From the IMG/VR virus record IMGVR_UViG_3300045988_005550: a stretch of DNA of 5,052 nt, one strand, 5' to 3'. This document shows, one piece after another, positions 1 through 5,052 of this stretch; the first letter of the stretch is position 1; each line of letters starts with the position of its first letter. Both the position numbers and the translations under genes were made by a program. The DNA is from a virus. The notes beneath the pieces are model-generated. The model made no database searches and was not told the origin of the DNA. It worked only from the letters and a program-made list of their open reading frames with translations.

Positions 1-99
1 CTTTTTTTTATCTATAGCTATGGATTTTTAGATGTCATCAGTTAATCGTTCTACTCAGCATCTGTTCTCTCAGATTCCTTCAACTCAGATTCCTCGATC
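1..99. repeat. Terminal redundancy, copy 1. It is identical to 4954-5052, which implies a circular 4953-nt genome.
   Basis: Base-by-base comparison: c1 t2-t9 a10 ... c99 matches c4954 t4955-t4962 a4963 ... c5052. The offset is 4953 throughout and I found no mismatch. Confidence 0.95.
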
Positions 100-1702
100 G
101 GTCTTTGACCGTTCTCATGGATATAAGACAACTTTTAATTCTGGTTTTCTTGTACCCTTTTACGTTGACGAAGTTCTTCCAGGAGATTCGTTTAAGCTGA
201 CTGCTACTTTGTTTGCCCGTTTGGCTACGCCGATCGTGCCTTTCATGGACAATCTCTATTTAGAGACTTTCTTCTTTTTTGTTCCTAATCGTCTTGTTTG
301 GGATAACTGGCAAAAGTTCAATGGTGAGCAGAAAAATCCTACCGATCCTACGGATTTTTTGATTCCTACGGTTTCCGGCACGAATGTTCAGAATCAGACC
401 TTGTGGGATTATTTCGGTCTTCCGACCAATGTCAATAAAGCTTTGAAAGTAAATGCGCTTCCTTTCCGCGCTTACAATCTCATTTTCAATGAGTGGTTTA
501 GAGACGAGAATCTTCAAGAATCTTTGAAAGTTCCGACTAACGACGGTCCTGACAATTTGTCTGACTACAACTTGGTTCGTCGCGGTAAGCGTCACGACTA
601 TTTCACGTCATGTTTGCCCTGGCCTCAGAAAGGTCCAGGCGTAGAGATTTCGATTGGTGGTCAGGCTAATGTTTCTGGCTCTTTAACTTCTTGGCCCGAT
701 TCTATTTCGTATTCCATGACTGCGACGGAAGGCGCTACCGTTAATCCTTCTGTTGTTTCGTTGAATCTTTTCCCTCAAACGATGACTTCCGGTACTGGAA
801 GTTCGACGTCTGCCTCTTTTGCTCAATCTCAATTTTTAGGTTCAGGGTTTCAAGTACATACGACCCGCGGTAATGTTTCTGTGACTGCTACCCGTGGCGA
901 TCTTGGTGGTTTTGGTTTTTCTGGTAAGGCTGATCTTTCGTCTGCTTCGCCGATCTCTATTAATGATCTTCGTCAAGCCTTCCAGATTCAAAAGCTCTAT
1001 GAACGCGACGCGCGCGGCGGTACGCGCTACACAGAGATCCTTCGCTCGCATTTTGGCGTGGTCTCGCCTGATGCTCGTCTCCAGCGCCCTGAGTACCTCG
1101 GCGGCTCATCTGCTCGTATTTTGATCAATCCCGTCCAACAAACTTCAGCAACGAATGAAACGACCCCTCAGGGTAATTTAGCCGCTTATGGTGTTGCTTC
1201 GGATAGTTTTCATGGCTTCTCGAAGTCCTTTGTCGAGCATGGCTACGTTTTCGGCTTTGTGAATGTCCGTGCTGATTTGACTTATCAGCAAGGTCTGAAT
1301 CGCATGTGGTCGCGTCAAGGTCGTTTTGACTTTTATTGGCCTGTGCTTGCTCATCTTGGCGAACAAGCTGTTCTCAATAAAGAGATCTATGCGCAAGGCA
1401 CTGCTGATGACGATAAGGTTTTTGGTTATCAGGAGCGTTATGCTGAGTATCGCTACTATCCTGGTCAGATTACTGGCAAGTTCCGTTCGACTGATCCTCA
1501 GCCGCTCGACAGTTGGCATTTAGCGCAGAATTTCAGCTCTTTGCCAACGCTTTCGCGGCAATTCATTGAAGATAATCCGCCCGTTGAGCGTGTAATCGCC
1601 GTTCAGAATGAGCCGCAATTCTTGTTTGACTCGTATATTCGTTTGAAGTGTGCTCGTCCGATGCCTGTTTACTCGGTGCCTGGATTGGTTGATCACTTCT
1701 AA
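32..1702 (+). CDS. VP1: Major capsid protein VP1 (Microviridae F-type jelly-roll capsid, gokushovirus-like)
   Basis: 556-aa ORF. It carries blocks typical of gokushovirus VP1: SVFDRSHGYKTTFNSGFLVPFYVDEVLPGDSF, PFMDNLYLETFFFFVPNRLVW, KRHDYFTSCLPWPQKG and INDLRQAFQIQKLYERDARGGTRYTEILRSHFGV. Codon third positions are T-rich. The stop is TAA at 1700-1702. Confidence 0.95.
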   Translation: MSSVNRSTQHLFSQIPSTQIPRSVFDRSHGYKTTFNSGFLVPFYVDEVLPGDSFKLTATLFARLATPIVPFMDNLYLETFFFFVPNRLVWDNWQKFNGEQKNPTDPTDFLIPTVSGTNVQNQTLWDYFGLPTNVNKALKVNALPFRAYNLIFNEWFRDENLQESLKVPTNDGPDNLSDYNLVRRGKRHDYFTSCLPWPQKGPGVEISIGGQANVSGSLTSWPDSISYSMTATEGATVNPSVVSLNLFPQTMTSGTGSSTSASFAQSQFLGSGFQVHTTRGNVSVTATRGDLGGFGFSGKADLSSASPISINDLRQAFQIQKLYERDARGGTRYTEILRSHFGVVSPDARLQRPEYLGGSSARILINPVQQTSATNETTPQGNLAAYGVASDSFHGFSKSFVEHGYVFGFVNVRADLTYQQGLNRMWSRQGRFDFYWPVLAHLGEQAVLNKEIYAQGTADDDKVFGYQERYAEYRYYPGQITGKFRSTDPQPLDSWHLAQNFSSLPTLSRQFIEDNPPVERVIAVQNEPQFLFDSYIRLKCARPMPVYSVPGLVDHF

Positions 1703-1706
1703 GGAG
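1701..1706 (+). promoter_or_regulatory. Shine-Dalgarno AAGGAG serving the 20-aa micro-ORF. It is the best SD match I found in the genome.
   Basis: AAGGAG at 1701-1706 overlaps the VP1 stop and sits 5 nt upstream of the ATG at 1712. Confidence 0.6.
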
Positions 1707-1711
1707 TTGTT

Positions 1712-1774
1712 ATGGCTTTAGTTATTTGGCTTGCCGTTGTTGGTACTGTTGTTATCTTTGCTTTAGGACAGTGA
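1712..1774 (+). CDS. Hypothetical 20-aa hydrophobic micropeptide (MALVIWLAVVGTVVIFALGQ), a predicted single membrane-spanning segment
   Basis: Hand translation of ATG 1712 to TGA 1772-1774. A strong AAGGAG lies at 5-nt spacing. The ORF fills the VP1-VP2 gap almost exactly: 9 nt after the VP1 stop and 1 nt before the VP2 ATG. 11 of 20 third positions are T, as in the core genes. There are no charged residues. Confidence 0.55.
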   Translation: MALVIWLAVVGTVVIFALGQ

Positions 1775-1775
1775 T

Positions 1776-2399
1776 ATGGGTTTCGGTTGGGCTGAAGCGA
1801 TAGGTAGTGTTGCTAATTTAGGTAGTTCTGCTATGGCTGCTTATTTTGGCTGGAAGCATCAGAAAGAAGTTATGCAAAATCGGCATCAATGGGAAGTTGC
1901 TGATATGCGCAAAGCAGGTCTTAATCCGATACTTTCTGCTACTGGCGGCTCTGGTGCTCCTGGCAACGCACCTACGATCGTTGCTCCTGATCTCGCTGGA
2001 GCGATGAAGTCTGGTGCTGAAGCGTCAACTCAGCATTCTGAGAAGAGTTTGAAAGATGCTCTTGAGAAACAGACTTACGTTCAGAATTCTGCTCTGCAGG
2101 CTGATGCAGGTTTGAAACGCGCTCAGTCTGTTGCTGCTGATTCTTCTTCAAATTTGATGTGGTCTCAAACTAAAGGACAGGAGATTGCTAATAAGATTCA
2201 AGAAGAGAATTTGAAGCAAGCGAAATTTATGACTCAGAATTCTGCTATTGCTGCTGAGAAGCAAAAGATGTTTTTTGATTACATGCGTGATCATTCCTCT
2301 GCTTGGAAGTTTGGTCAGTGGATGGGTCTTGTTAATCCGTTTAACAATACTTCCTCTGCGGCTACTTCTGCTGTAGGTGCCGCTCGTCTTGCAAAATGA
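1776..2399 (+). CDS. VP2: Minor capsid / DNA pilot protein VP2 (phiX174 H analogue)
   Basis: 207-aa ORF directly after VP1. The Gly/Ala-rich N-terminus and the MRKAGLNPILS motif are typical of gokushovirus VP2, and the C-terminal half is helical and Ala/Gln/Lys-rich. AGGA at 1765-1768 lies 7 nt before the ATG. Confidence 0.85.
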   Translation: MGFGWAEAIGSVANLGSSAMAAYFGWKHQKEVMQNRHQWEVADMRKAGLNPILSATGGSGAPGNAPTIVAPDLAGAMKSGAEASTQHSEKSLKDALEKQTYVQNSALQADAGLKRAQSVAADSSSNLMWSQTKGQEIANKIQEENLKQAKFMTQNSAIAAEKQKMFFDYMRDHSSAWKFGQWMGLVNPFNNTSSAATSAVGAARLAK

Positions 2400-2494
2400 T
2401 AGATGCGATTCTTAAGTTCGTTAATGTTTTGCTGAATTCTGGTTCAGCGATCTGGGAGGCCTTCAAGGCCGTTAAGAAGCTTTTTAAAAAGTGA
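2396..2494 (+). CDS. Hypothetical 32-aa amphipathic, C-terminally basic peptide (MIDAILKFVNVLLNSGSAIWEAFKAVKKLFKK)
   Basis: Its ATG (2396-2398) overlaps the VP2 stop TGA (2397-2399) in an ATGA arrangement, which suggests translational coupling. It ends at TGA 2492-2494, 7 nt before the next gene. It has no independent SD, and third-position T bias is only moderate. Confidence 0.4.
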   Translation: MIDAILKFVNVLLNSGSAIWEAFKAVKKLFKK

Positions 2495-2501
2495 GGTTTA
2501 T

Positions 2502-2621
2502 ATGTCTCGTCGTCATAAGCTTTCTCGTAAGGCATCTAAGCGTATTTTCCGTAAAGGTGCATCACGCACGAAGACTTTGAATACTCGTGCTACGCCTATG
2601 CGTGGCGGTTTCCGTATTTAA
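2502..2621 (+). CDS. VP8: Small basic DNA-binding / packaging protein (phiX174 J analogue; gokushovirus ORF8/VP8-like)
   Basis: Hand translation gives the 39-aa peptide MSRRHKLSRKASKRIFRKGASRTKTLNTRATPMRGGFRI. It has 9 Arg, 5 Lys and no acidic residue. The C-terminal MRGG-F-R-I resembles the MRGGIRF-type tail of chlamydiaphage ORF8 proteins, recalled from memory. GAGG at 2493-2496 lies 5 nt before the ATG. Confidence 0.8.
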   Translation: MSRRHKLSRKASKRIFRKGASRTKTLNTRATPMRGGFRI

Positions 2622-2696
2622 GCGTTAACCCTTGTTACCTGCCGCGGTCGTCATAGTTATCATTTTGAACATCTCAATTTCATTTGGAACTGCGCT

Positions 2697-2927
2697 ATGG
2701 CTACTGCGGCTTTTCGTTTGACTCTTAAAGACTTTGGCGTCTGCTGGCTTATCCCTGGCGAAGAAAGCTATGTTGGTCGTCGCAAGTTGGTGGCCTGGAC
2801 GCTTTATCGCGATCGCCCTTGGGTCGCTCTTTGTTCATTTCAGGTTCGTTTTCGCTCTTCTCGTGAGACGATTCTTCGTGAGCTTCATATTGCGTGTCTT
2901 GAAAAATGCCTTGCTTTCACCCGATAA
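2697..2927 (+). CDS. Hypothetical 76-aa basic, Cys/Trp-containing protein (orphan). Its 3' end overlaps the VP4 start by 22 nt.
   Basis: ORF from the track. By my count about 38 of 76 third positions are T, like the core genes, versus about 19 of 72 for the competing frame at 2734-2952. It occupies an otherwise unexplained 284-nt gap between VP8 and VP4. The SD is weak (TGGA, 8 nt upstream). I recognise no family motif. Confidence 0.45.
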   Translation: MATAAFRLTLKDFGVCWLIPGEESYVGRRKLVAWTLYRDRPWVALCSFQVRFRSSRETILRELHIACLEKCLAFTR

Positions 2928-3823
2928 CGGCTTATCGACTCGCCGGATCTAAGACTGAAGACGGTACTCGCAACGCTGTAACCTTTGATCCTTCGAAGGC
3001 TATTCCGTTTTCTGAGTTTAAGATTCCTTGTGGTCAATGCATTGGCTGTCGTCTTTCTAAGTCTCGTGAATGGGCCGCTCGATGTGTTGTTGAAGCTAAG
3101 TCACATAAGAACAACATGTTTCTTACGTTGACTTATGACGATGCTCACTTGCCTGAAGATGGCTCACTTCATTACGAGCATTTTCAGCTGTTCATGAAGC
3201 GCATGCGTAAATACTTCATGAGCCGTTTTGGTCAACAGCTTCGCTTTTTCATGTGTGGTGAGTATGGCGATAAGCTTGGTCGTCCTCACTATCACGCCAT
3301 AATTTTTGGCGTTACTTTTGTAGATAAACAGCTCTGGTCGATTCGTCGAGGCAATAACTTATATCGTAGCCGTACGCTTGAGAAACTTTGGCCGTATGGT
3401 TTTAGTTCGATTGGTTCAGTCAACTTTGAGACTGCCGCTTATGTCGCTCGTTATGTTACGAAGAAAATTACAGGTCCTTTGAAGCTTGAGCATTACGATG
3501 GTAAGGTTGCTGAATTTTGTCATTGCTCGCTTAAACCTGGCATTGGTCATGACTTTTGTGAAAAGTACATGACTGATATCTATACTAATGACCGTCTCAT
3601 TCTTAGCGAGAAGATAATGATGAATCCTCCGGCTTATTTTGATAAGTTGCTTGAGCGTTCTGATATCGTTCGTTATGAAGAGATTAAGCGTCTTCGCGAA
3701 AAGCGAGGCCGTGACTTTGAAGATACTGGAGAGACTTCTCCTCATCGTCTTTCAGTTCGTGAACGCGTCCAAGAATTGAAAGCCGCTAAACTTAGACGCG
3801 TTATGGAAGAGAATCAATCATGA
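2906..3823 (+). CDS. VP4: Replication initiation protein VP4 (HUH-superfamily rolling-circle endonuclease, phiX174 A analogue)
   Basis: 305-aa ORF with the canonical N-terminus MPCFHPITAY. It has the Cys cluster CGQCIGCRLSKSREWA, motif 1 FLTLTYDD, the HUH motif RPHYHAIIFG, and the tyrosine motif AAYVARYVTKK. There is no recognisable SD before the ATG. Confidence 0.95.
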   Translation: MPCFHPITAYRLAGSKTEDGTRNAVTFDPSKAIPFSEFKIPCGQCIGCRLSKSREWAARCVVEAKSHKNNMFLTLTYDDAHLPEDGSLHYEHFQLFMKRMRKYFMSRFGQQLRFFMCGEYGDKLGRPHYHAIIFGVTFVDKQLWSIRRGNNLYRSRTLEKLWPYGFSSIGSVNFETAAYVARYVTKKITGPLKLEHYDGKVAEFCHCSLKPGIGHDFCEKYMTDIYTNDRLILSEKIMMNPPAYFDKLLERSDIVRYEEIKRLREKRGRDFEDTGETSPHRLSVRERVQELKAAKLRRVMEENQS

Positions 3824-4110
3824 TCCTTAAGGTATTTTCCGTTTTCGATTCGAAGCTTCAGGTCTTTAATACCCCTTTCTTTAGTCGTTCTGCCGCAGAT
3901 GCTTCACGGTCTTTTTCTGATCTTGTCCGCGATAGTCGCACTACAGTCGGTCAGCATCCTGATGATTTCTTTCTTTATGAGATCGGTCAGTACTCTGATG
4001 AGACTGGAGAGCTTGTAGCCTCTGCTCCGACACAGATTGCCGCCGCGACTGCTTTTGTTTCTACGATTGAGGGCCCCAAAGCGGCCGCGCCTGCTAAGGC
4101 CGAAGTCTAA
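3820..4110 (+). CDS. VP5: Non-structural protein VP5 (gokushovirus ORF5 family, proposed analogue of phiX174 protein C)
   Basis: 96-aa ORF. Its ATG overlaps the VP4 TGA in an ATGA arrangement at 3820-3823. The N-terminal pattern KVFSVFDSK...FNTPFFSRSAADASRSF and the later DDFFLYEIGQYSDETGEL match the VP5 pattern as I remember it. The position after VP4 is typical. Confidence 0.8.
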   Translation: MILKVFSVFDSKLQVFNTPFFSRSAADASRSFSDLVRDSRTTVGQHPDDFFLYEIGQYSDETGELVASAPTQIAAATAFVSTIEGPKAAAPAKAEV

Positions 4111-4147: not shown

Positions 4148-4175
4148 AGTCCTTGCGTAGTGCGAGGACTTTTTT
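4148..4175 (+). terminator. Intrinsic-terminator-like hairpin plus T5 between VP5 and VP3
   Basis: AGTCCTTGCG at 4148-4157 pairs with TGCGAGGACT at 4161-4170, giving 10 pairs (2 of them G-T/G-U wobbles) and a 3-nt loop. TTTTT follows at 4171-4175. Confidence 0.55.
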
Positions 4176-4188
4176 ATATGGAGCTTAT

Positions 4189-4638
4189 ATGAAGTTCAAA
4201 ATTAATCACACAAACGCTACTGCCGAAGGCATTGTTTTTACTGAACCGTCGATGACTCAACAGCACTTTAAAGATGAGACCATGATTGACAACATCTTGC
4301 AAAAGTATGCTGAGACCGGTTTTTTGACTGATCCTTTTTCGCCGAAGCGTCCGATTCAGTTTGGTGATTTCTCTGGCGTAACTGATTTTCAGACTGCTCA
4401 GAATGCGGTTGCTCGTGCAACTGAGTACTTTGAAAGTTTGCCGTCGTATATTCGTTCTTCGTTCAATAATTCTCCATCTGACTTTCTCCAGGCGCTCAAT
4501 GACCCTGAGCAGAGAAGTAAGCTTGAGACGCTTGGCTTTATTGCTCCTGAGGAAACTAAACTTCCTGAGCCTACTGGAGAATCTAAGCCTGTTCCGACTG
4601 CAGAGGTTAAACCGTCTTCTTCTGACAACAACGGGTAA
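4189..4638 (+). CDS. VP3: Internal scaffolding protein VP3
   Basis: 149 aa counted from ATG 4189. GGAG at 4180-4183 lies 5 nt upstream. The motif TEPSMTQQHFKDETMIDNILQKYAETGFL matches the conserved T-x-Q-x-x-KDE-x-DIN-x-I-x-KY-x-x-TG block of gokushovirus or chlamydiaphage scaffold proteins, recalled from memory. The C-terminus is acidic and Pro-rich. The TTG start at 4153 in the track lies inside the upstream hairpin and is disfavoured. Confidence 0.85.
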   Translation: MKFKINHTNATAEGIVFTEPSMTQQHFKDETMIDNILQKYAETGFLTDPFSPKRPIQFGDFSGVTDFQTAQNAVARATEYFESLPSYIRSSFNNSPSDFLQALNDPEQRSKLETLGFIAPEETKLPEPTGESKPVPTAEVKPSSSDNNG

Positions 4639-4688: not shown

Positions 4689-4716
4689 GACCGTCCACTT
4701 GTGGCGGTCTTTTTTT
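4689..4716 (+). terminator. Intrinsic-terminator-like hairpin plus T7 downstream of VP3
   Basis: GACCG(T)CCA at 4689-4697 pairs with TGGCGGTC at 4702-4709, with one bulged T. Seven T residues follow at 4710-4716. Confidence 0.6.
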
Positions 4717-4729
4717 ATAGGTATCTCAA

Positions 4730-4745
4730 CGATTTGCGCACGGGT
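4730..4745 (+). repeat. Direct repeat copy A (CGATTTGCGCACGGGT), 3 nt upstream of the 16-bp hairpin
   Basis: It matches 4796-4811 at 15 of 16 positions; the single difference is T4734 versus C4800. It contains the palindrome TGCGCA. Confidence 0.8.
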
Positions 4746-4748
4746 ACA

Positions 4749-4789
4749 CACCGGAACCAGTTACTTACTTGATGTAACTGGTTCCGGTG
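4749..4789 (+). promoter_or_regulatory. Perfect 16-bp stem with a 9-nt loop (TTACTTGAT). Candidate plus-strand origin and Rep nick-site hairpin.
   Basis: CACCGGAACCAGTTAC at 4749-4764 is the exact reverse complement of GTAACTGGTTCCGGTG at 4774-4789. The loop at 4765-4773 contains ACTTGAT, identical to the core of the phiX174 gene A protein cleavage site (CAACTTG/ATATT, from memory). The structure is certain. The functional call is inference. Confidence 0.45.
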
Positions 4790-4795
4790 ACACCC

Positions 4796-4811
4796 CGATC
4801 TGCGCACGGGT
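4796..4811 (+). repeat. Direct repeat copy B (CGATCTGCGCACGGGT), 6-7 nt downstream of the 16-bp hairpin
   Basis: See copy A. The two copies are spaced 66 nt apart and bracket the hairpin. Confidence 0.8.
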
Positions 4812-4833
4812 TCCCAACGCACTGCTCGGATGT

Positions 4834-4912: not shown

Positions 4913-4962
4913 GGGCGATCGGTTCGATGAGAGGGCTTTCAGAACTGGTCGCCCTTTTTTTT
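4913..4962 (+). terminator. Long hairpin plus T8, intrinsic-terminator-like, ending 22 nt upstream of the VP1 start codon in circular coordinates
   Basis: 4913-4925 pairs with 4942-4954, giving 13 pairs of which 2 are wobbles. An inner extension pairs 4928-4932 with 4937-4941. T8 follows at 4955-4962. The element spans the linearisation point, and its T-run also appears at window positions 2-9. Confidence 0.6.
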
Positions 4963-5052
4963 ATCTATAGCTATGGATTTTTAGATGTCATCAGTTAATC
5001 GTTCTACTCAGCATCTGTTCTCTCAGATTCCTTCAACTCAGATTCCTCGATC
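4954..5052. repeat. Terminal redundancy, copy 2, identical to 1-99
   Basis: Same comparison as for copy 1. Confidence 0.95.
4985..5052 (+). CDS. VP1: Duplicate 5' fragment of VP1. It is a wrap-around artefact, not a second gene.
   Basis: The ATG at 4985 corresponds to the ATG at 32 (offset 4953). The sequence is identical to 32-99 and is truncated by the window end. Confidence 0.9.
   Translation, partial: MSSVNRSTQHLFSQIPSTQIPR

What the first reader, a model, noticed from the sequence alone, without database searches (positions are those of the whole stretch)
1701..1775. 20-aa all-hydrophobic micro-ORF with the strongest SD in the genome, wedged between VP1 and VP2
The peptide is MALVIWLAVVGTVVIFALGQ. 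It has no charged residue and is about the length of one membrane-spanning helix. AAGGAG lies at ideal 5-nt spacing, whereas VP1, VP4 and the 76-aa ORF have weak or absent SDs. The ORF fills the intergenic gap to within 1 nt of the VP2 ATG, and its third-position T bias matches the core genes. Standard ORF callers would miss it; it is absent from the supplied track. To my knowledge gokushoviruses have no assigned lysis gene, since no phiX174 E homologue is known. Chromosomal type I toxins of similar size and composition, such as the 18-19-aa Ibs peptides, kill by membrane damage. Candidate roles include a single-gene lysis or holin-like factor, a membrane anchor for assembly, superinfection exclusion, or a purely regulatory coupling ORF for VP2.
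Basis: partly seen in the sequence, partly recalled or inferred. Interest (0 to 1): 0.65.

Follow-up and report, generated by a model that had tools for sequence, protein, structure and literature searches.

The report
Unannotated 20-codon membrane-peptide gene, gokushovirus
Between the capsid gene and the DNA-pilot gene of a human-gut gokushovirus sits a real, conserved but never-annotated 20-codon gene for a one-helix membrane peptide; its job (helping lysis, blocking rival phages, or something else) is untested, and a few close relatives live without it.

Summary
AAGGAG (1701-1706), a 5-nt spacer and ATG 1712 open a 20-codon ORF ending at TGA 1774, 1 nt before the VP2 ATG. The peptide, MALVIWLAVVGTVVIFALGQ, is the most hydrophobic ORF in the window.

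It is a gene, not chance. Every relative that has the segment keeps it intact, with the same start and length. Stop codons vary (TGA/TAA/TAG) and there are no internal indels. pN/pS is 0.25 in frame against 0.94 and 1.33 off frame. No replacement introduces a charge.

It is confined to one human-associated clade (VP1 at least 80% identical). The next relatives join the same Shine-Dalgarno (SD) sequence directly to VP2, so the ORF was inserted between VP2's SD and its ATG. VP2 now probably depends on termination-reinitiation.

Three clade genomes lack the ORF cleanly, so it is accessory rather than the sole lysis gene. Unrelated 26-60-aa membrane ORFs fill the same slot in other gokushovirus clades.

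No known family matches, no gene caller has recorded the peptide, and the host is unknown. My best reading is a dispensable late membrane micro-protein. I favour a lysis or egress aid (about 0.3) over superinfection exclusion (about 0.25).

The parts
1700..1702 (+). VP1 (major capsid protein) stop codon TAA, overlapping the SD
   Evidence: VP1 spans 32-1702 and matches Phage_F capsid genes in relatives.
1701..1706 (+). Shine-Dalgarno AAGGAG, the only copy in the genome. It is the ancestral VP2 ribosome-binding site, now serving the micro-ORF.
   Evidence: -8.6 kcal/mol, the strongest of the gene starts. In genomes without the micro-ORF the same SD sits 5-6 nt before the VP2 ATG. A purine-rich SD is kept in all 73 haplotypes.
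1712..1774 (+). Micro-ORF of 20 codons plus TGA, encoding MALVIWLAVVGTVVIFALGQ, a predicted single membrane-spanning helix
   Evidence: Intact in 53 of 53 unbiased unique haplotypes. pN/pS is 0.25 in frame against 0.94 and 1.33 off frame; Fisher p = 3e-4. None of the 18 observed replacements is disruptive, against 27 of 106 possible (p = 0.003). There are no indels inside the ORF, while the spacer after the stop varies. GRAVY is 2.28 and summed insertion free energy is about -2.2 kcal/mol (the scale values are recalled from memory).
1765..1768 (+). Weak internal SD (AGGA) for VP2, inside micro-ORF codons 18-19
   Evidence: -3.9 kcal/mol. Codons 17-18 are invariant even at synonymous sites, and in codon 19 only the third base, outside the AGG core, varies. 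This contributes to the low synonymous diversity.
1772..1778 (+). Stop-start junction TGAtATG (micro-ORF stop, 1 nt, VP2 start); inferred site of termination-reinitiation
   Evidence: The spacer is 1 nt in 42 haplotypes, 2 nt in 29, and 4-5 nt in 2. The analogous ORFs in other clades end in TGATG or TAATG, overlapping the VP2 start.
1776..2399 (+). VP2 (DNA pilot protein), the downstream gene coupled to the micro-ORF
   Evidence: phrog_20617 and pilot-protein PHROGs. Annotated as VP2 or DNA pilot protein in relatives.

Best explanation
The feature is a genuine, translated, lineage-specific accessory gene. It encodes a 20-residue, uncharged peptide that forms one helix long enough to span the host cytoplasmic membrane.

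Origin and expression: the gene arose in the ancestor of one human-associated gokushovirus clade by insertion of about 64 nt exactly between the VP2 Shine-Dalgarno sequence and the VP2 ATG. It therefore took over the best ribosome-binding site in the genome. It is co-transcribed with VP1 and VP2, since there is no terminator, promoter or stable structure in the gap. It hands ribosomes on to VP2 by termination-reinitiation at TGAtATG or TAAtyATG, helped by a weak AGGA inside its last codons. The peptide should therefore be made at least as abundantly as VP2, late in infection, and should accumulate in the inner membrane.

Function: it is useful but dispensable. I favour a membrane-perturbing helper of lysis or egress, with holin-like or type-I-toxin-like threshold logic (about 0.3). 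Next comes superinfection exclusion or modulation of a host membrane protein (about 0.25).

Shown: the ORF, the SD, conservation, purifying selection, clade restriction, the insertion site, and presence/absence polymorphism. Inferred: translation, membrane insertion, coupling to VP2, and any phenotype.

Confidence by layer: real coding gene 0.9; membrane peptide 0.8; coupling to VP2 0.7; specific role at most 0.3.
For: Coding signature. All 53 unique junction haplotypes retrieved through VP2 or whole-genome similarity, that is, without reference to the ORF, keep start, length and frame. Synonymous variants are seen at 21 of 46 possible changes and nonsynonymous at 22 of 125 (Fisher p = 3e-4). 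Pairwise pN/pS is 0.25, against 0.94 and 1.33 in the other frames. That value is comparable to VP1 (0.12-0.20) and VP2 (0.19-0.35) in the same genomes. All replacements in codons 2-19 stay hydrophobic or small (p = 0.003). The stop codon switches among TGA, TAA and TAG at a fixed position, and indels occur only in the spacer after it.

Internal negative controls. A similarly hydrophobic chance ORF at 2632-2721 is broken by indels in relatives. An overprinted hydrophobic ORF inside VP5 is broken in 10 of 55 relatives.

Insertion model. Relatives with 60-69% VP1 identity place the SD directly before VP2, or have a hairpin there. Three clade genomes read TAA-SD-ATG(VP2).

No structural alternative. 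The RNA fold z-score is 0.30 and no promoter or terminator lies in the gap.

SD strength.

Membrane character.

Recurrence. Unrelated 26-27-aa and 38-60-aa membrane ORFs occupy the same VP1-VP2 slot in other gokushovirus clades. Their stops overlap the VP2 start, and each family is conserved across divergent VP2 alleles. SD-led membrane-like intergenic ORFs are enriched: 6 of 109 genomes, against 0.75 +/- 0.7 in shuffles.

Literature. The gokushovirus lysis mechanism is unknown (PMC7062461, PMC3394797). Lysis-associated accessory genes of other microvirus families sit between VP1 and VP4 (PMC9239249).
Against: There is no direct evidence of translation or of any phenotype. The host is unknown: there are no prophage copies, and the long contigs are concatemers.

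Only 19 informative codons exist, and the genomes recombine, so the selection statistics are rough.

Synonymous diversity (0.21) is lower than in any 19-codon window of the VP1 3' region (minimum 0.25, mean 0.50). So part of the conservation is at nucleotide level (the VP2 ribosome-binding site in codons 17-19), or the segment is young and has spread by recombination.

Hydrophobicity is the default product of T-rich DNA.

Membrane insertion is inferred from hydropathy alone. The peptide has no flanking charges and could be unstable.

Against a lysis role specifically: sister lineages and three nested genomes manage without the ORF. In the levivirus screen, most candidates with a predicted transmembrane domain had no phenotype (PMC7693330).
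Confidence: 0.6

Rival explanations
1. It is the phage's sole single-gene lysis (Sgl) protein: a 20-residue helix that blocks a membrane step of cell-wall synthesis (as phiX174 E does to MraY and LysM does to MurJ) or collapses the membrane, and is essential for release.
For: It has an SD plus a transmembrane-like segment, two of the three criteria used to find Sgls (PMC7693330). It is expressed late from the structural mRNA. No other lysis gene is known in gokushoviruses (PMC7062461). Unrelated membrane ORFs recur in the same slot, which resembles the repeated de novo birth of Sgls.
Against: The ORF is absent from the nearest sister lineages. It is missing in three genomes nested in the clade that are 6-13% diverged from ORF-bearing relatives, with no compensating new ORF. 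About 74% of sampled gokushovirus VP1-VP2 gaps are 20 nt or shorter. It has no homology to E or to any PHROG or Pfam lysis family. At 20 codons it is below the 25-codon cut-off used in that screen.
Confidence: 0.1
2. It is a superinfection-exclusion or host-modulating micro-protein: the helix binds a host inner-membrane protein needed for entry of related phages, or retunes a host membrane complex, protecting the infected or carrier cell.
For: Its accessory, clade-specific, presence/absence behaviour fits an arms-race gene. It stays conserved while VP2 diverges to 50% identity, so its partner is not the variable part of VP2. Gokushovirus-carrying cells are immune to superinfection by an unknown mechanism (PMC7062461). 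Precedent recalled from memory: the 30-aa PfsE of Pf filamentous phage.
Against: There is no test. Conserved residues do not fall on one helix face (my reading of the variation). Strong expression on the late structural mRNA is not what an exclusion factor specifically needs.
Confidence: 0.25
3. It is only a regulatory upstream ORF: translating it sets VP2 output by coupling, and the peptide itself has no function.
For: It captured VP2's SD. VP2 is left with a weak AGGA and a stop-start distance of 1-2 nt. In the deletion alleles VP2 simply regains the strong SD.
Against: Amino-acid-level constraint is as strong as in VP2: pN/pS is 0.25, there are no disruptive replacements, and W6-L7-A8 are invariant despite synonymous change in L7 and A8. 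Length is fixed at 20 codons in 72 of 73 haplotypes.
Confidence: 0.08
4. It is a chance ORF in T-rich intergenic DNA with no function.
For: T-rich sequence yields hydrophobic ORFs by default. Several such ORFs exist off frame in the window.
Against: It is conserved in frame in every carrier, with an excess of third-position variation. True chance ORFs in the same genomes decay.
Confidence: 0.03
5. It is not a separate gene but an extension of a neighbour: either a VP1 C-terminal anchor made by stop-codon readthrough, or a VP2 N-terminal helix made by frameshifting.
For: In the window the ORF is in frame with VP1 (32 and 1712 are both 2 mod 3). Microvirus pilot proteins are reported to have N-terminal transmembrane segments (PMC3394797).
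Against: Seven of 73 haplotypes are out of frame with VP1. The offset to VP2 is +1 in 42 haplotypes and +2 in 29. The ORF's own ATG (72 ATG, 1 GTG) and SD are conserved.
Confidence: 0.02

Closest known systems
phiX174 protein E (Microviridae single-gene lysis protein, 91 aa)
   Same: A small membrane protein of a microvirus whose activity resides in one transmembrane helix. It is expressed with the late morphogenetic genes, and it is a lineage-specific invention.
   Different: There is no sequence similarity. E is overprinted inside scaffold gene D, whereas this ORF is free-standing in an intergenic slot. E is 91 aa with a soluble tail, and this peptide is 20 aa with none. E is essential for lysis, whereas this ORF is missing in viable-looking relatives.
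Levivirus Sgl proteins, e.g. LysM/SglM (37 aa; PMC12506998) and the de novo Sgls of PMC7693330
   Same: They are tiny, have an SD and one transmembrane domain, are born repeatedly and without homology in minimal phage genomes, and are missed by annotation.
   Different: This is a DNA phage. The ORF falls below the 25-codon threshold used in that screen. Lytic activity is untested, and the gene is dispensable in some genomes.
Ibs type I toxins of E. coli (18-19 aa; recalled from general knowledge)
   Same: Nearly identical size and all-hydrophobic composition. They act by membrane damage when over-produced.
   Different: Ibs toxins are chromosomal and are repressed by an antisense Sib RNA. Here no antisense promoter or partner is evident, there is no homology, and expression is driven by a strong SD on a phage structural mRNA.
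PfsE of Pf filamentous phages (30 aa inner-membrane superinfection-exclusion protein; recalled from general knowledge)
   Same: A very small hydrophobic accessory protein of an ssDNA phage, acting through a helix-helix contact in the inner membrane.
   Different: A different phage family, no homology, and the function is not tested here.
phiX174 protein K (56 aa, non-essential, affects burst size; recalled from general knowledge)
   Same: A small, dispensable microvirus protein that improves yield rather than being required.
   Different: K is overprinted on A/C, is longer and is not purely hydrophobic. There is no homology.
Unrelated junction ORFs found here in other gokushovirus clades (MNWFS...27 aa; [ML]N[DE][LM]QIST...26 aa; MDSIKW/MGKIEW...38-60 aa)
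   Same: They occupy the same slot between VP1 and VP2, have one hydrophobic helix, end on or next to the VP2 start, and are conserved within their clades.
   Different: There is no sequence similarity to the 20-aa peptide. They are longer and carry polar N-termini and basic C-termini. None is annotated or characterised.

Membership tests
Single-gene lysis (Sgl) candidates, operational criteria of PMC7693330 | ORF of at least 25 codons | tested here: not met
   The ORF has 20 codons. That paper found one functional gene below 25 codons.
Single-gene lysis (Sgl) candidates, operational criteria of PMC7693330 | Legitimate Shine-Dalgarno sequence | tested here: met
   AAGGAG lies 5 nt upstream at -8.6 kcal/mol and is conserved.
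Single-gene lysis (Sgl) candidates, operational criteria of PMC7693330 | Predicted transmembrane domain | tested here: met
   There is a 19-20-residue uncharged hydrophobic stretch with GRAVY 2.28. This rests on hydropathy only; no dedicated predictor was available.
Single-gene lysis (Sgl) proteins, functional definition | Expression causes host lysis, and the gene is required for release | not testable with these tools
   Indirect evidence is against a strict requirement. Three clade genomes and all sister lineages lack the ORF.
phiX174 E family | Sequence homology to E, and overprinted in the scaffold gene | tested here: not met
   There is no Pfam, PHROG or NCBIfam hit. The ORF is intergenic, not overprinted.
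Holin-endolysin systems | A holin with a charged C-terminal tail, paired with a muralytic enzyme gene | tested here: not met
   The peptide has no charged residue. The window holds no endolysin or peptidase gene: the protein-family scans covered every substantial ORF except VP1 and VP4, and the latter two are identified as capsid and replication genes by the annotation and Pfam hits of relatives.
Type I toxin-antitoxin (Ibs/Sib-like) | Antisense RNA antitoxin overlapping the toxin gene | tested here: inconclusive
   No minus-strand promoter-like site lies near 1650-1850 in a simple sigma-70 scan. All genes are on one strand, as expected for a microvirus. The host's promoter type is unknown.
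Protein-coding gene (general) | Reading frame, start and stop conserved, with an excess of synonymous change in that frame only | tested here: met
   negative controls.
Gokushovirinae core gene set (VP1, VP2, VP3, VP4, VP5, VP8) | Present across the subfamily | tested here: not met
   The ORF is restricted to the clade with VP1 at least 80% identical. It is absent at 60-69% identity and from 116 sampled junctions of other clades.

The most novel reading that the evidence does not exclude
The 20-residue peptide is the lysis effector of this clade, which would make it the smallest known phage lysis protein. The unrelated membrane micro-ORFs at the VP1-VP2 junction of other gokushovirus clades would then be convergent, repeatedly born lysis genes, the DNA-phage counterpart of de novo Sgl evolution in RNA phages. 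That would begin to answer how gokushoviruses, which lack an E homologue, lyse their hosts. The rare ORF-less genomes would be defective or carrier-state variants.
Probability: 0.2. Interest if true: 0.85.

Novelty: new variant of a known kind. Interest (0 to 1): 0.62.

Why it matters
Gokushoviruses are among the most abundant ssDNA phages in the human gut. Their genomes are regarded as fully parsed into six or so genes, and how they lyse cells is an open question.

This work shows that a 5-kb genome still hides a selected gene of only 20 codons. That is invisible to every gene caller and absent from a 15-billion-protein collection. It also shows that the VP1-VP2 junction is a recurrent birthplace of tiny membrane proteins.

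The finding gives a concrete, cheap-to-test candidate: a 2.1-kDa peptide that can be synthesised or induced. It bears on lysis, exclusion or burst control. Natural with-ORF and without-ORF alleles are available for comparison. It is also a clean example of gene birth by capture of a neighbour's ribosome-binding site.

Tried and rejected
1. Structured RNA or a transcription signal in the gap. The fold z-score is 0.30, and no promoter- or terminator-like site lies there. Rejected.

2. VP1 readthrough or VP2 frameshift fusion. The frame relations are not conserved. Rejected.

3. Origin by tandem duplication of the VP2 5' end. Alignment to the VP2 start is only marginally better than to other windows (tail fractions 0.06, 0.02 and 0.05). 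Unproven.

4. Homology to known families. Pfam, PHROGs, NCBIfam, PADLOC and PDB sequences gave nothing meaningful.

5. Homology search of the big protein database. An exact look-up shows the peptide is not in the collection.

6. Host or prophage search. The DNA pattern found nothing in 185,579 species genomes. A VP1 profile found 12 gokushovirus loci, none from this clade. Contigs longer than one genome are concatemers.

7. A compensating gene in the ORF-less genomes. None was found.

8. Alternative lysis candidate 1: a TTG-start 29-aa hydrophobic ORF at 2632-2721. It is broken by indels in relatives.

9. Alternative lysis candidate 2: a 39-aa hydrophobic ORF overprinted in VP5 (3899-4018). 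It has premature stops or a lost ATG in 11 of 55 relatives.

10. A conserved helix face. Invariant residues are spread around the helix, so there is no support for one.

11. Literature. No paper mentions the peptide or a junction micro-ORF.

12. Bias check. My first pN/pS run used pattern-retrieved sequences, which biases towards conservation. I repeated it on the unbiased set with the same result.
Full report
WHAT THE WINDOW IS. The 5052-base window is one complete circular gokushovirus genome of 4953 nt, with a 99-nt terminal redundancy. All genes lie on the + strand:
- VP1, major capsid: 32-1702
- the micro-ORF: 1712-1774
- VP2, DNA pilot: 1776-2399
- a 32-aa ORF: 2396-2494
- a 39-aa basic VP8-like gene: 2502-2621
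- a 76-aa ORF: 2697-2927
- VP4, replication: 2906-3823
- VP5: 3820-4110
- VP3, scaffold: 4189-4638

Six GenBank genomes from human faeces or vaginal secretion are 85-89% identical. None annotates anything between VP1 and VP2.

THE OBSERVATION. TAA (1700-1702) overlaps AAGGAG (1701-1706). Five nucleotides later ATG 1712 opens 20 codons (MALVIWLAVVGTVVIFALGQ) that end at TGA 1772-1774. One T separates the stop from the VP2 ATG at 1776.

AAGGAG is unique in the genome. Its pairing with the 16S 3' end (-8.6 kcal/mol) is the best of any gene start, tied with the VP8-like gene (-8.5). VP1, VP4 and the 76-aa ORF have poor sites.

The peptide is the most hydrophobic ORF in the window (GRAVY 2.28). The most hydrophobic 20-residue windows in any of the six frames lie inside it. 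A summed insertion free energy of about -2.2 kcal/mol predicts membrane insertion (the scale values are recalled from memory). Third-position T is 60%.

Composition alone is not evidence, however. The genome is 33% T, and off-frame ORFs are routinely hydrophobic.

IS IT A GENE? I collected relatives in ways that do not depend on the micro-ORF: whole-genome similarity, VP2 protein similarity in IMG/VR, and contigs encoding the neighbouring 32-aa protein.

Every junction that contains the segment has the ORF intact. That covers 53 unique haplotypes in the first two sets and 11 further junctions in the third. Start and length are conserved: 72 ATG and 1 GTG; 20 codons in 72 of 73 haplotypes, and 19 in one. 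The stop codon alternates among TGA, TAA and TAG at the same position. There is no indel inside the ORF, although the spacer immediately after the stop is 1, 2, 4 or 5 nt.

In the unbiased set:
- 21 of 46 possible synonymous single-base variants are observed, against 22 of 125 nonsynonymous ones (Fisher p = 3e-4).
- Pairwise pN/pS is 0.25 in the ORF's frame, but 0.94 and 1.33 in the other two.
- VP1 and VP2 in the same genomes give 0.12-0.35.
- None of the 18 distinct replacements in codons 2-19 introduces a charged, strongly polar or proline residue, although 27 of 106 possible ones would (p = 0.003).
- Only the last codon is free (Q, H, R, N, C, G or stop).

Two internal controls behave as non-genes should. 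A 29-aa hydrophobic ORF in the non-coding stretch 2632-2721 is disrupted by 1-2-nt and 7-10-nt indels in relatives. A 39-aa hydrophobic ORF overprinted in VP5 has premature stops or a lost ATG in 11 of 55 relatives.

The gap has no unusual RNA structure (z = 0.30) and no promoter- or terminator-like site. I conclude that the ORF is a protein-coding gene under purifying selection for a hydrophobic helix.

One caveat. Its synonymous diversity (0.21) is lower than in any 19-codon window of the VP1 3' region (minimum 0.25, mean 0.50). Part of this is explained by the VP2 ribosome-binding site: AGGA sits in codons 18-19, codons 17-18 never vary even at synonymous sites, and codon 19 varies only at its third base, outside the AGG core. 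The rest may mean the segment is young and spread through the clade by recombination.

WHERE IT CAME FROM AND HOW IT IS EXPRESSED. The ORF is confined to one clade. A degenerate DNA pattern for it gave the following:
- 56 IMG/VR contigs, all gokushovirus genomes of about 5 kb.
- 24 true metagenome contigs, those with source labels being human-gut or viral metagenomes, plus one chance hit in a GC-rich bacterium.
- Nothing in 185,579 bacterial and archaeal species genomes.

The next-nearest GenBank genomes (VP1 60-69% identical) have no such ORF. Their VP1 stop and VP2 start are 8-14 nt apart with the SD in between, or are separated by a hairpin terminator followed by AAGGAG. Thus the strongest SD is the ancestral VP2 SD. 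About 64 nt were inserted exactly between it and the VP2 ATG.

VP2 now has only a weak AGGA (-3.9 kcal/mol) and a stop-start spacing of 1-2 nt. That is the classic arrangement for termination-reinitiation. This step is inferred, not shown.

The ORF is in frame with VP1 in the window, but 7 of 73 haplotypes break that relation. The offset to VP2 is +1 in 42 haplotypes and +2 in 29. Readthrough or frameshift fusions are therefore excluded.

A tandem duplication of the VP2 5' end is a tempting origin. The nucleotide similarity is only marginal (tail fractions 0.02-0.06), so I leave this open.

IT IS DISPENSABLE. Three genomes inside the clade read TAA-SD-ATG(VP2), with the micro-ORF cleanly absent: L030 and L031 and L271. 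That is roughly 3 of 67 junctions sampled without bias.

L030 and L031 are not each other's nearest relatives around the junction. L031's VP1 3' end is 94.8% identical to the ORF-bearing L007, but only 87.3% identical to L030. All three have different SD-ATG spacers. These are therefore independent alleles that have persisted while diverging 6-13% from carriers.

They carry no compensating new SD-led membrane ORF. Together with the ORF's absence from the sister lineages, this argues against the peptide being the only means of lysis.

THE SAME SLOT IS USED REPEATEDLY. I sampled 116 distinct VP1-VP2 junctions from other gokushoviruses through the conserved VP1 C-terminus. Of these, 86 have gaps of 20 nt or less.

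Among the longer gaps, unrelated small hydrophobic ORFs fill the space and end on the VP2 start:
- A 27-aa family (MNWFS[TA]IA...), found in 9 contigs and ending TGATG or TAATG.
- A 26-aa family ([ML]N[DE][LM]QIST...VVLR[ST]FGLI), found in 4 contigs and ending TAATG.

Each is conserved across very different VP2 N-termini. A 38-60-aa membrane ORF family occupies the slot in marine and freshwater lineages.

SD-led, transmembrane-like intergenic ORFs occur in 6 of 109 genomes, against 0.75 +/- 0.7 after shuffling. None of these peptides matches PHROGs or NCBIfam, and none of the short ones is in the protein collection. The VP1-VP2 junction is therefore a recurrent birthplace of tiny membrane proteins.

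WHAT IT PROBABLY DOES. Shown: a selected, SD-led, 20-residue hydrophobic peptide gene on the VP1-VP2 message, accessory and clade-specific. Inferred: the peptide inserts into the cytoplasmic membrane and accumulates late in infection, at least stoichiometrically with VP2.

The published record says gokushoviruses lack an E-type lysis gene and that their lysis mechanism is unknown (PMC7062461, PMC3394797). In other microvirus families, lysis-associated accessory genes lie between VP1 and VP4 (PMC9239249). Repeated de novo birth of small SD-plus-transmembrane genes is the hallmark of Sgl lysis genes in RNA phages. In that screen, however, most transmembrane candidates had no phenotype (PMC7693330).

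Weighing this against the dispensability, my ranking is:
- a non-essential membrane-perturbing helper of lysis or egress, about 0.3
- superinfection exclusion or modulation of a host membrane protein, about 0.25 (gokushovirus carriers are immune to superinfection by an unknown mechanism, PMC7062461)
- sole lysis gene, about 0.1
- purely regulatory upstream ORF, about 0.08
- chance ORF, about 0.03
- fusion to a neighbouring protein, about 0.02

The remainder of the probability is an unforeseen role, for example in VP2 handling or assembly. The peptide stays nearly constant while VP2 diverges to 50% identity. That argues against co-evolution with VP2's variable N-terminus.

COMPARISON WITH KNOWN SYSTEMS. 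The peptide has no detectable homology to anything: Pfam, PHROGs, NCBIfam, PADLOC and PDB sequences gave nothing.
- In size and composition it resembles Ibs type I toxins.
- In genomic logic it resembles levivirus Sgls and phiX174 E.
- In being a dispensable microvirus extra it resembles phiX174 K.
- As an ssDNA-phage inner-membrane micro-protein it resembles PfsE.

The Ibs, K and PfsE comparisons are recalled from general knowledge and are leads only. It fails the membership tests for the E family (no homology, not overprinted) and for holin-endolysin systems (no charged tail, no muralytic gene). It meets two of the three operational Sgl criteria. The functional criterion cannot be tested here.

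VERDICT. The lysis idea remains possible but only as an accessory role, and the special SD is inherited from VP2. The feature is a new variant of a known kind (tiny phage membrane micro-proteins), with a broader pattern of junction micro-ORFs that appears undescribed. Interest 0.62.

Noticed in passing
window 2396-2494 (+): A second small gene encodes a 32-aa amphipathic, C-terminally basic peptide, MIDAILKFVNVLLNSGSAIWEAFKAVKKLFKK. Its ATG overlaps the VP2 stop (ATGA). pN/pS is 0.13 in frame against 1.0 and 1.9 off frame. It is present in the ORF-less genomes too, and as a 36-aa version in relatives with 69% VP1 identity. The six GenBank relatives do not annotate it, but it exists in databases as 'hypothetical protein', in a cluster of 87 members on more than 600 contigs. 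Its function is unknown, and it could itself be membrane-active.
   Followed up: partly
L030 ~2035-2060; L031 ~1977-2002; L271 ~3373-3400: Three genomes nested in the clade lack the micro-ORF cleanly: VP1 TAA, then the SD, then directly the VP2 ATG. Each has a different spacer, and they are not nearest relatives of one another. They form a natural presence/absence polymorphism that could be used for experiments.
   Followed up: yes
L145, L244, L261-L267 (27 aa); L160, L189, L259, L260 (26 aa); L218, L251, L254 (38-60 aa): Unrelated small single-helix ORFs occupy the same VP1-VP2 slot in other gokushovirus clades. The 26-27-aa families end with TGATG or TAATG overlapping the VP2 start and are conserved across divergent VP2 alleles. 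None is annotated or assigned to a family.
   Followed up: partly
window 1712-1771: Synonymous diversity of the micro-ORF (0.21) is below that of every 19-codon window in the VP1 3' region (minimum 0.25, mean 0.50). The embedded VP2 ribosome-binding site explains only part of this. A young segment spread by recombination is the other possibility.
   Followed up: partly
window 2622-2675: A highly conserved non-coding block follows the VP8-like gene: GTTAACCC..TACCTGCCGCGGTCGTCATAGTTATCATTTTGAACATCT. The next ~20 nt are indel-prone. It might be an origin or promoter element, and a few relatives (L003, L005, L041) carry a different module here.
   Followed up: no
window 4730-4819: In the long non-coding region, two 24-nt direct repeats (CGATYTGCGCACGGGT...) flank a perfect 16-nt inverted repeat (CACCGGAACCAGTTAC / GTAACTGGTTCCGGTG, 9-nt loop). 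The role is unknown: replication origin, packaging or a recombination site. Terminator-like hairpins lie at 4148-4170 and 4689-4709.
   Followed up: no
window 3899-4018 (+), inside VP5 in the +1 frame: A 39-aa hydrophobic overprinted ORF (MLHGLFLILSAIVALQ...) looks like an E-style candidate. However, 10 of 55 relatives have premature stops and one has lost the ATG. It is probably a by-product of the T-rich third positions of VP5.
   Followed up: yes
window 2502-2621 and 2697-2927 (+): The 39-aa arginine/lysine-rich VP8-like gene (phrog_10695, E = 7e-13; C-terminal PMRGGFRI shared by distant relatives) is missing from the annotation of all six GenBank relatives. So is the 76-aa ORF that overlaps the VP4 start, although metagenome gene callers do call it. 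The 76-aa product matches no family.
   Followed up: partly
window 1-99 and 4954-5052; L120/L270, L268, L269, L271: The window carries an exact 99-nt terminal repeat, giving a circular genome of 4953 nt. Several public contigs of 5.2-13.8 kb are head-to-tail concatemers of non-identical genome copies, that is, assembly chimeras of co-occurring strains rather than prophages.
   Followed up: yes
L194 ~2746-2893; L233 ~1182-1350 (coordinates rotated to start just after the VP1 stop, not locus coordinates): Some unrelated gokushoviruses carry SD-led intergenic ORFs with lipoprotein-like signal peptides (…FYSGC…, …LTQGC…). These are another class of possible envelope-acting accessory genes.
   Followed up: no
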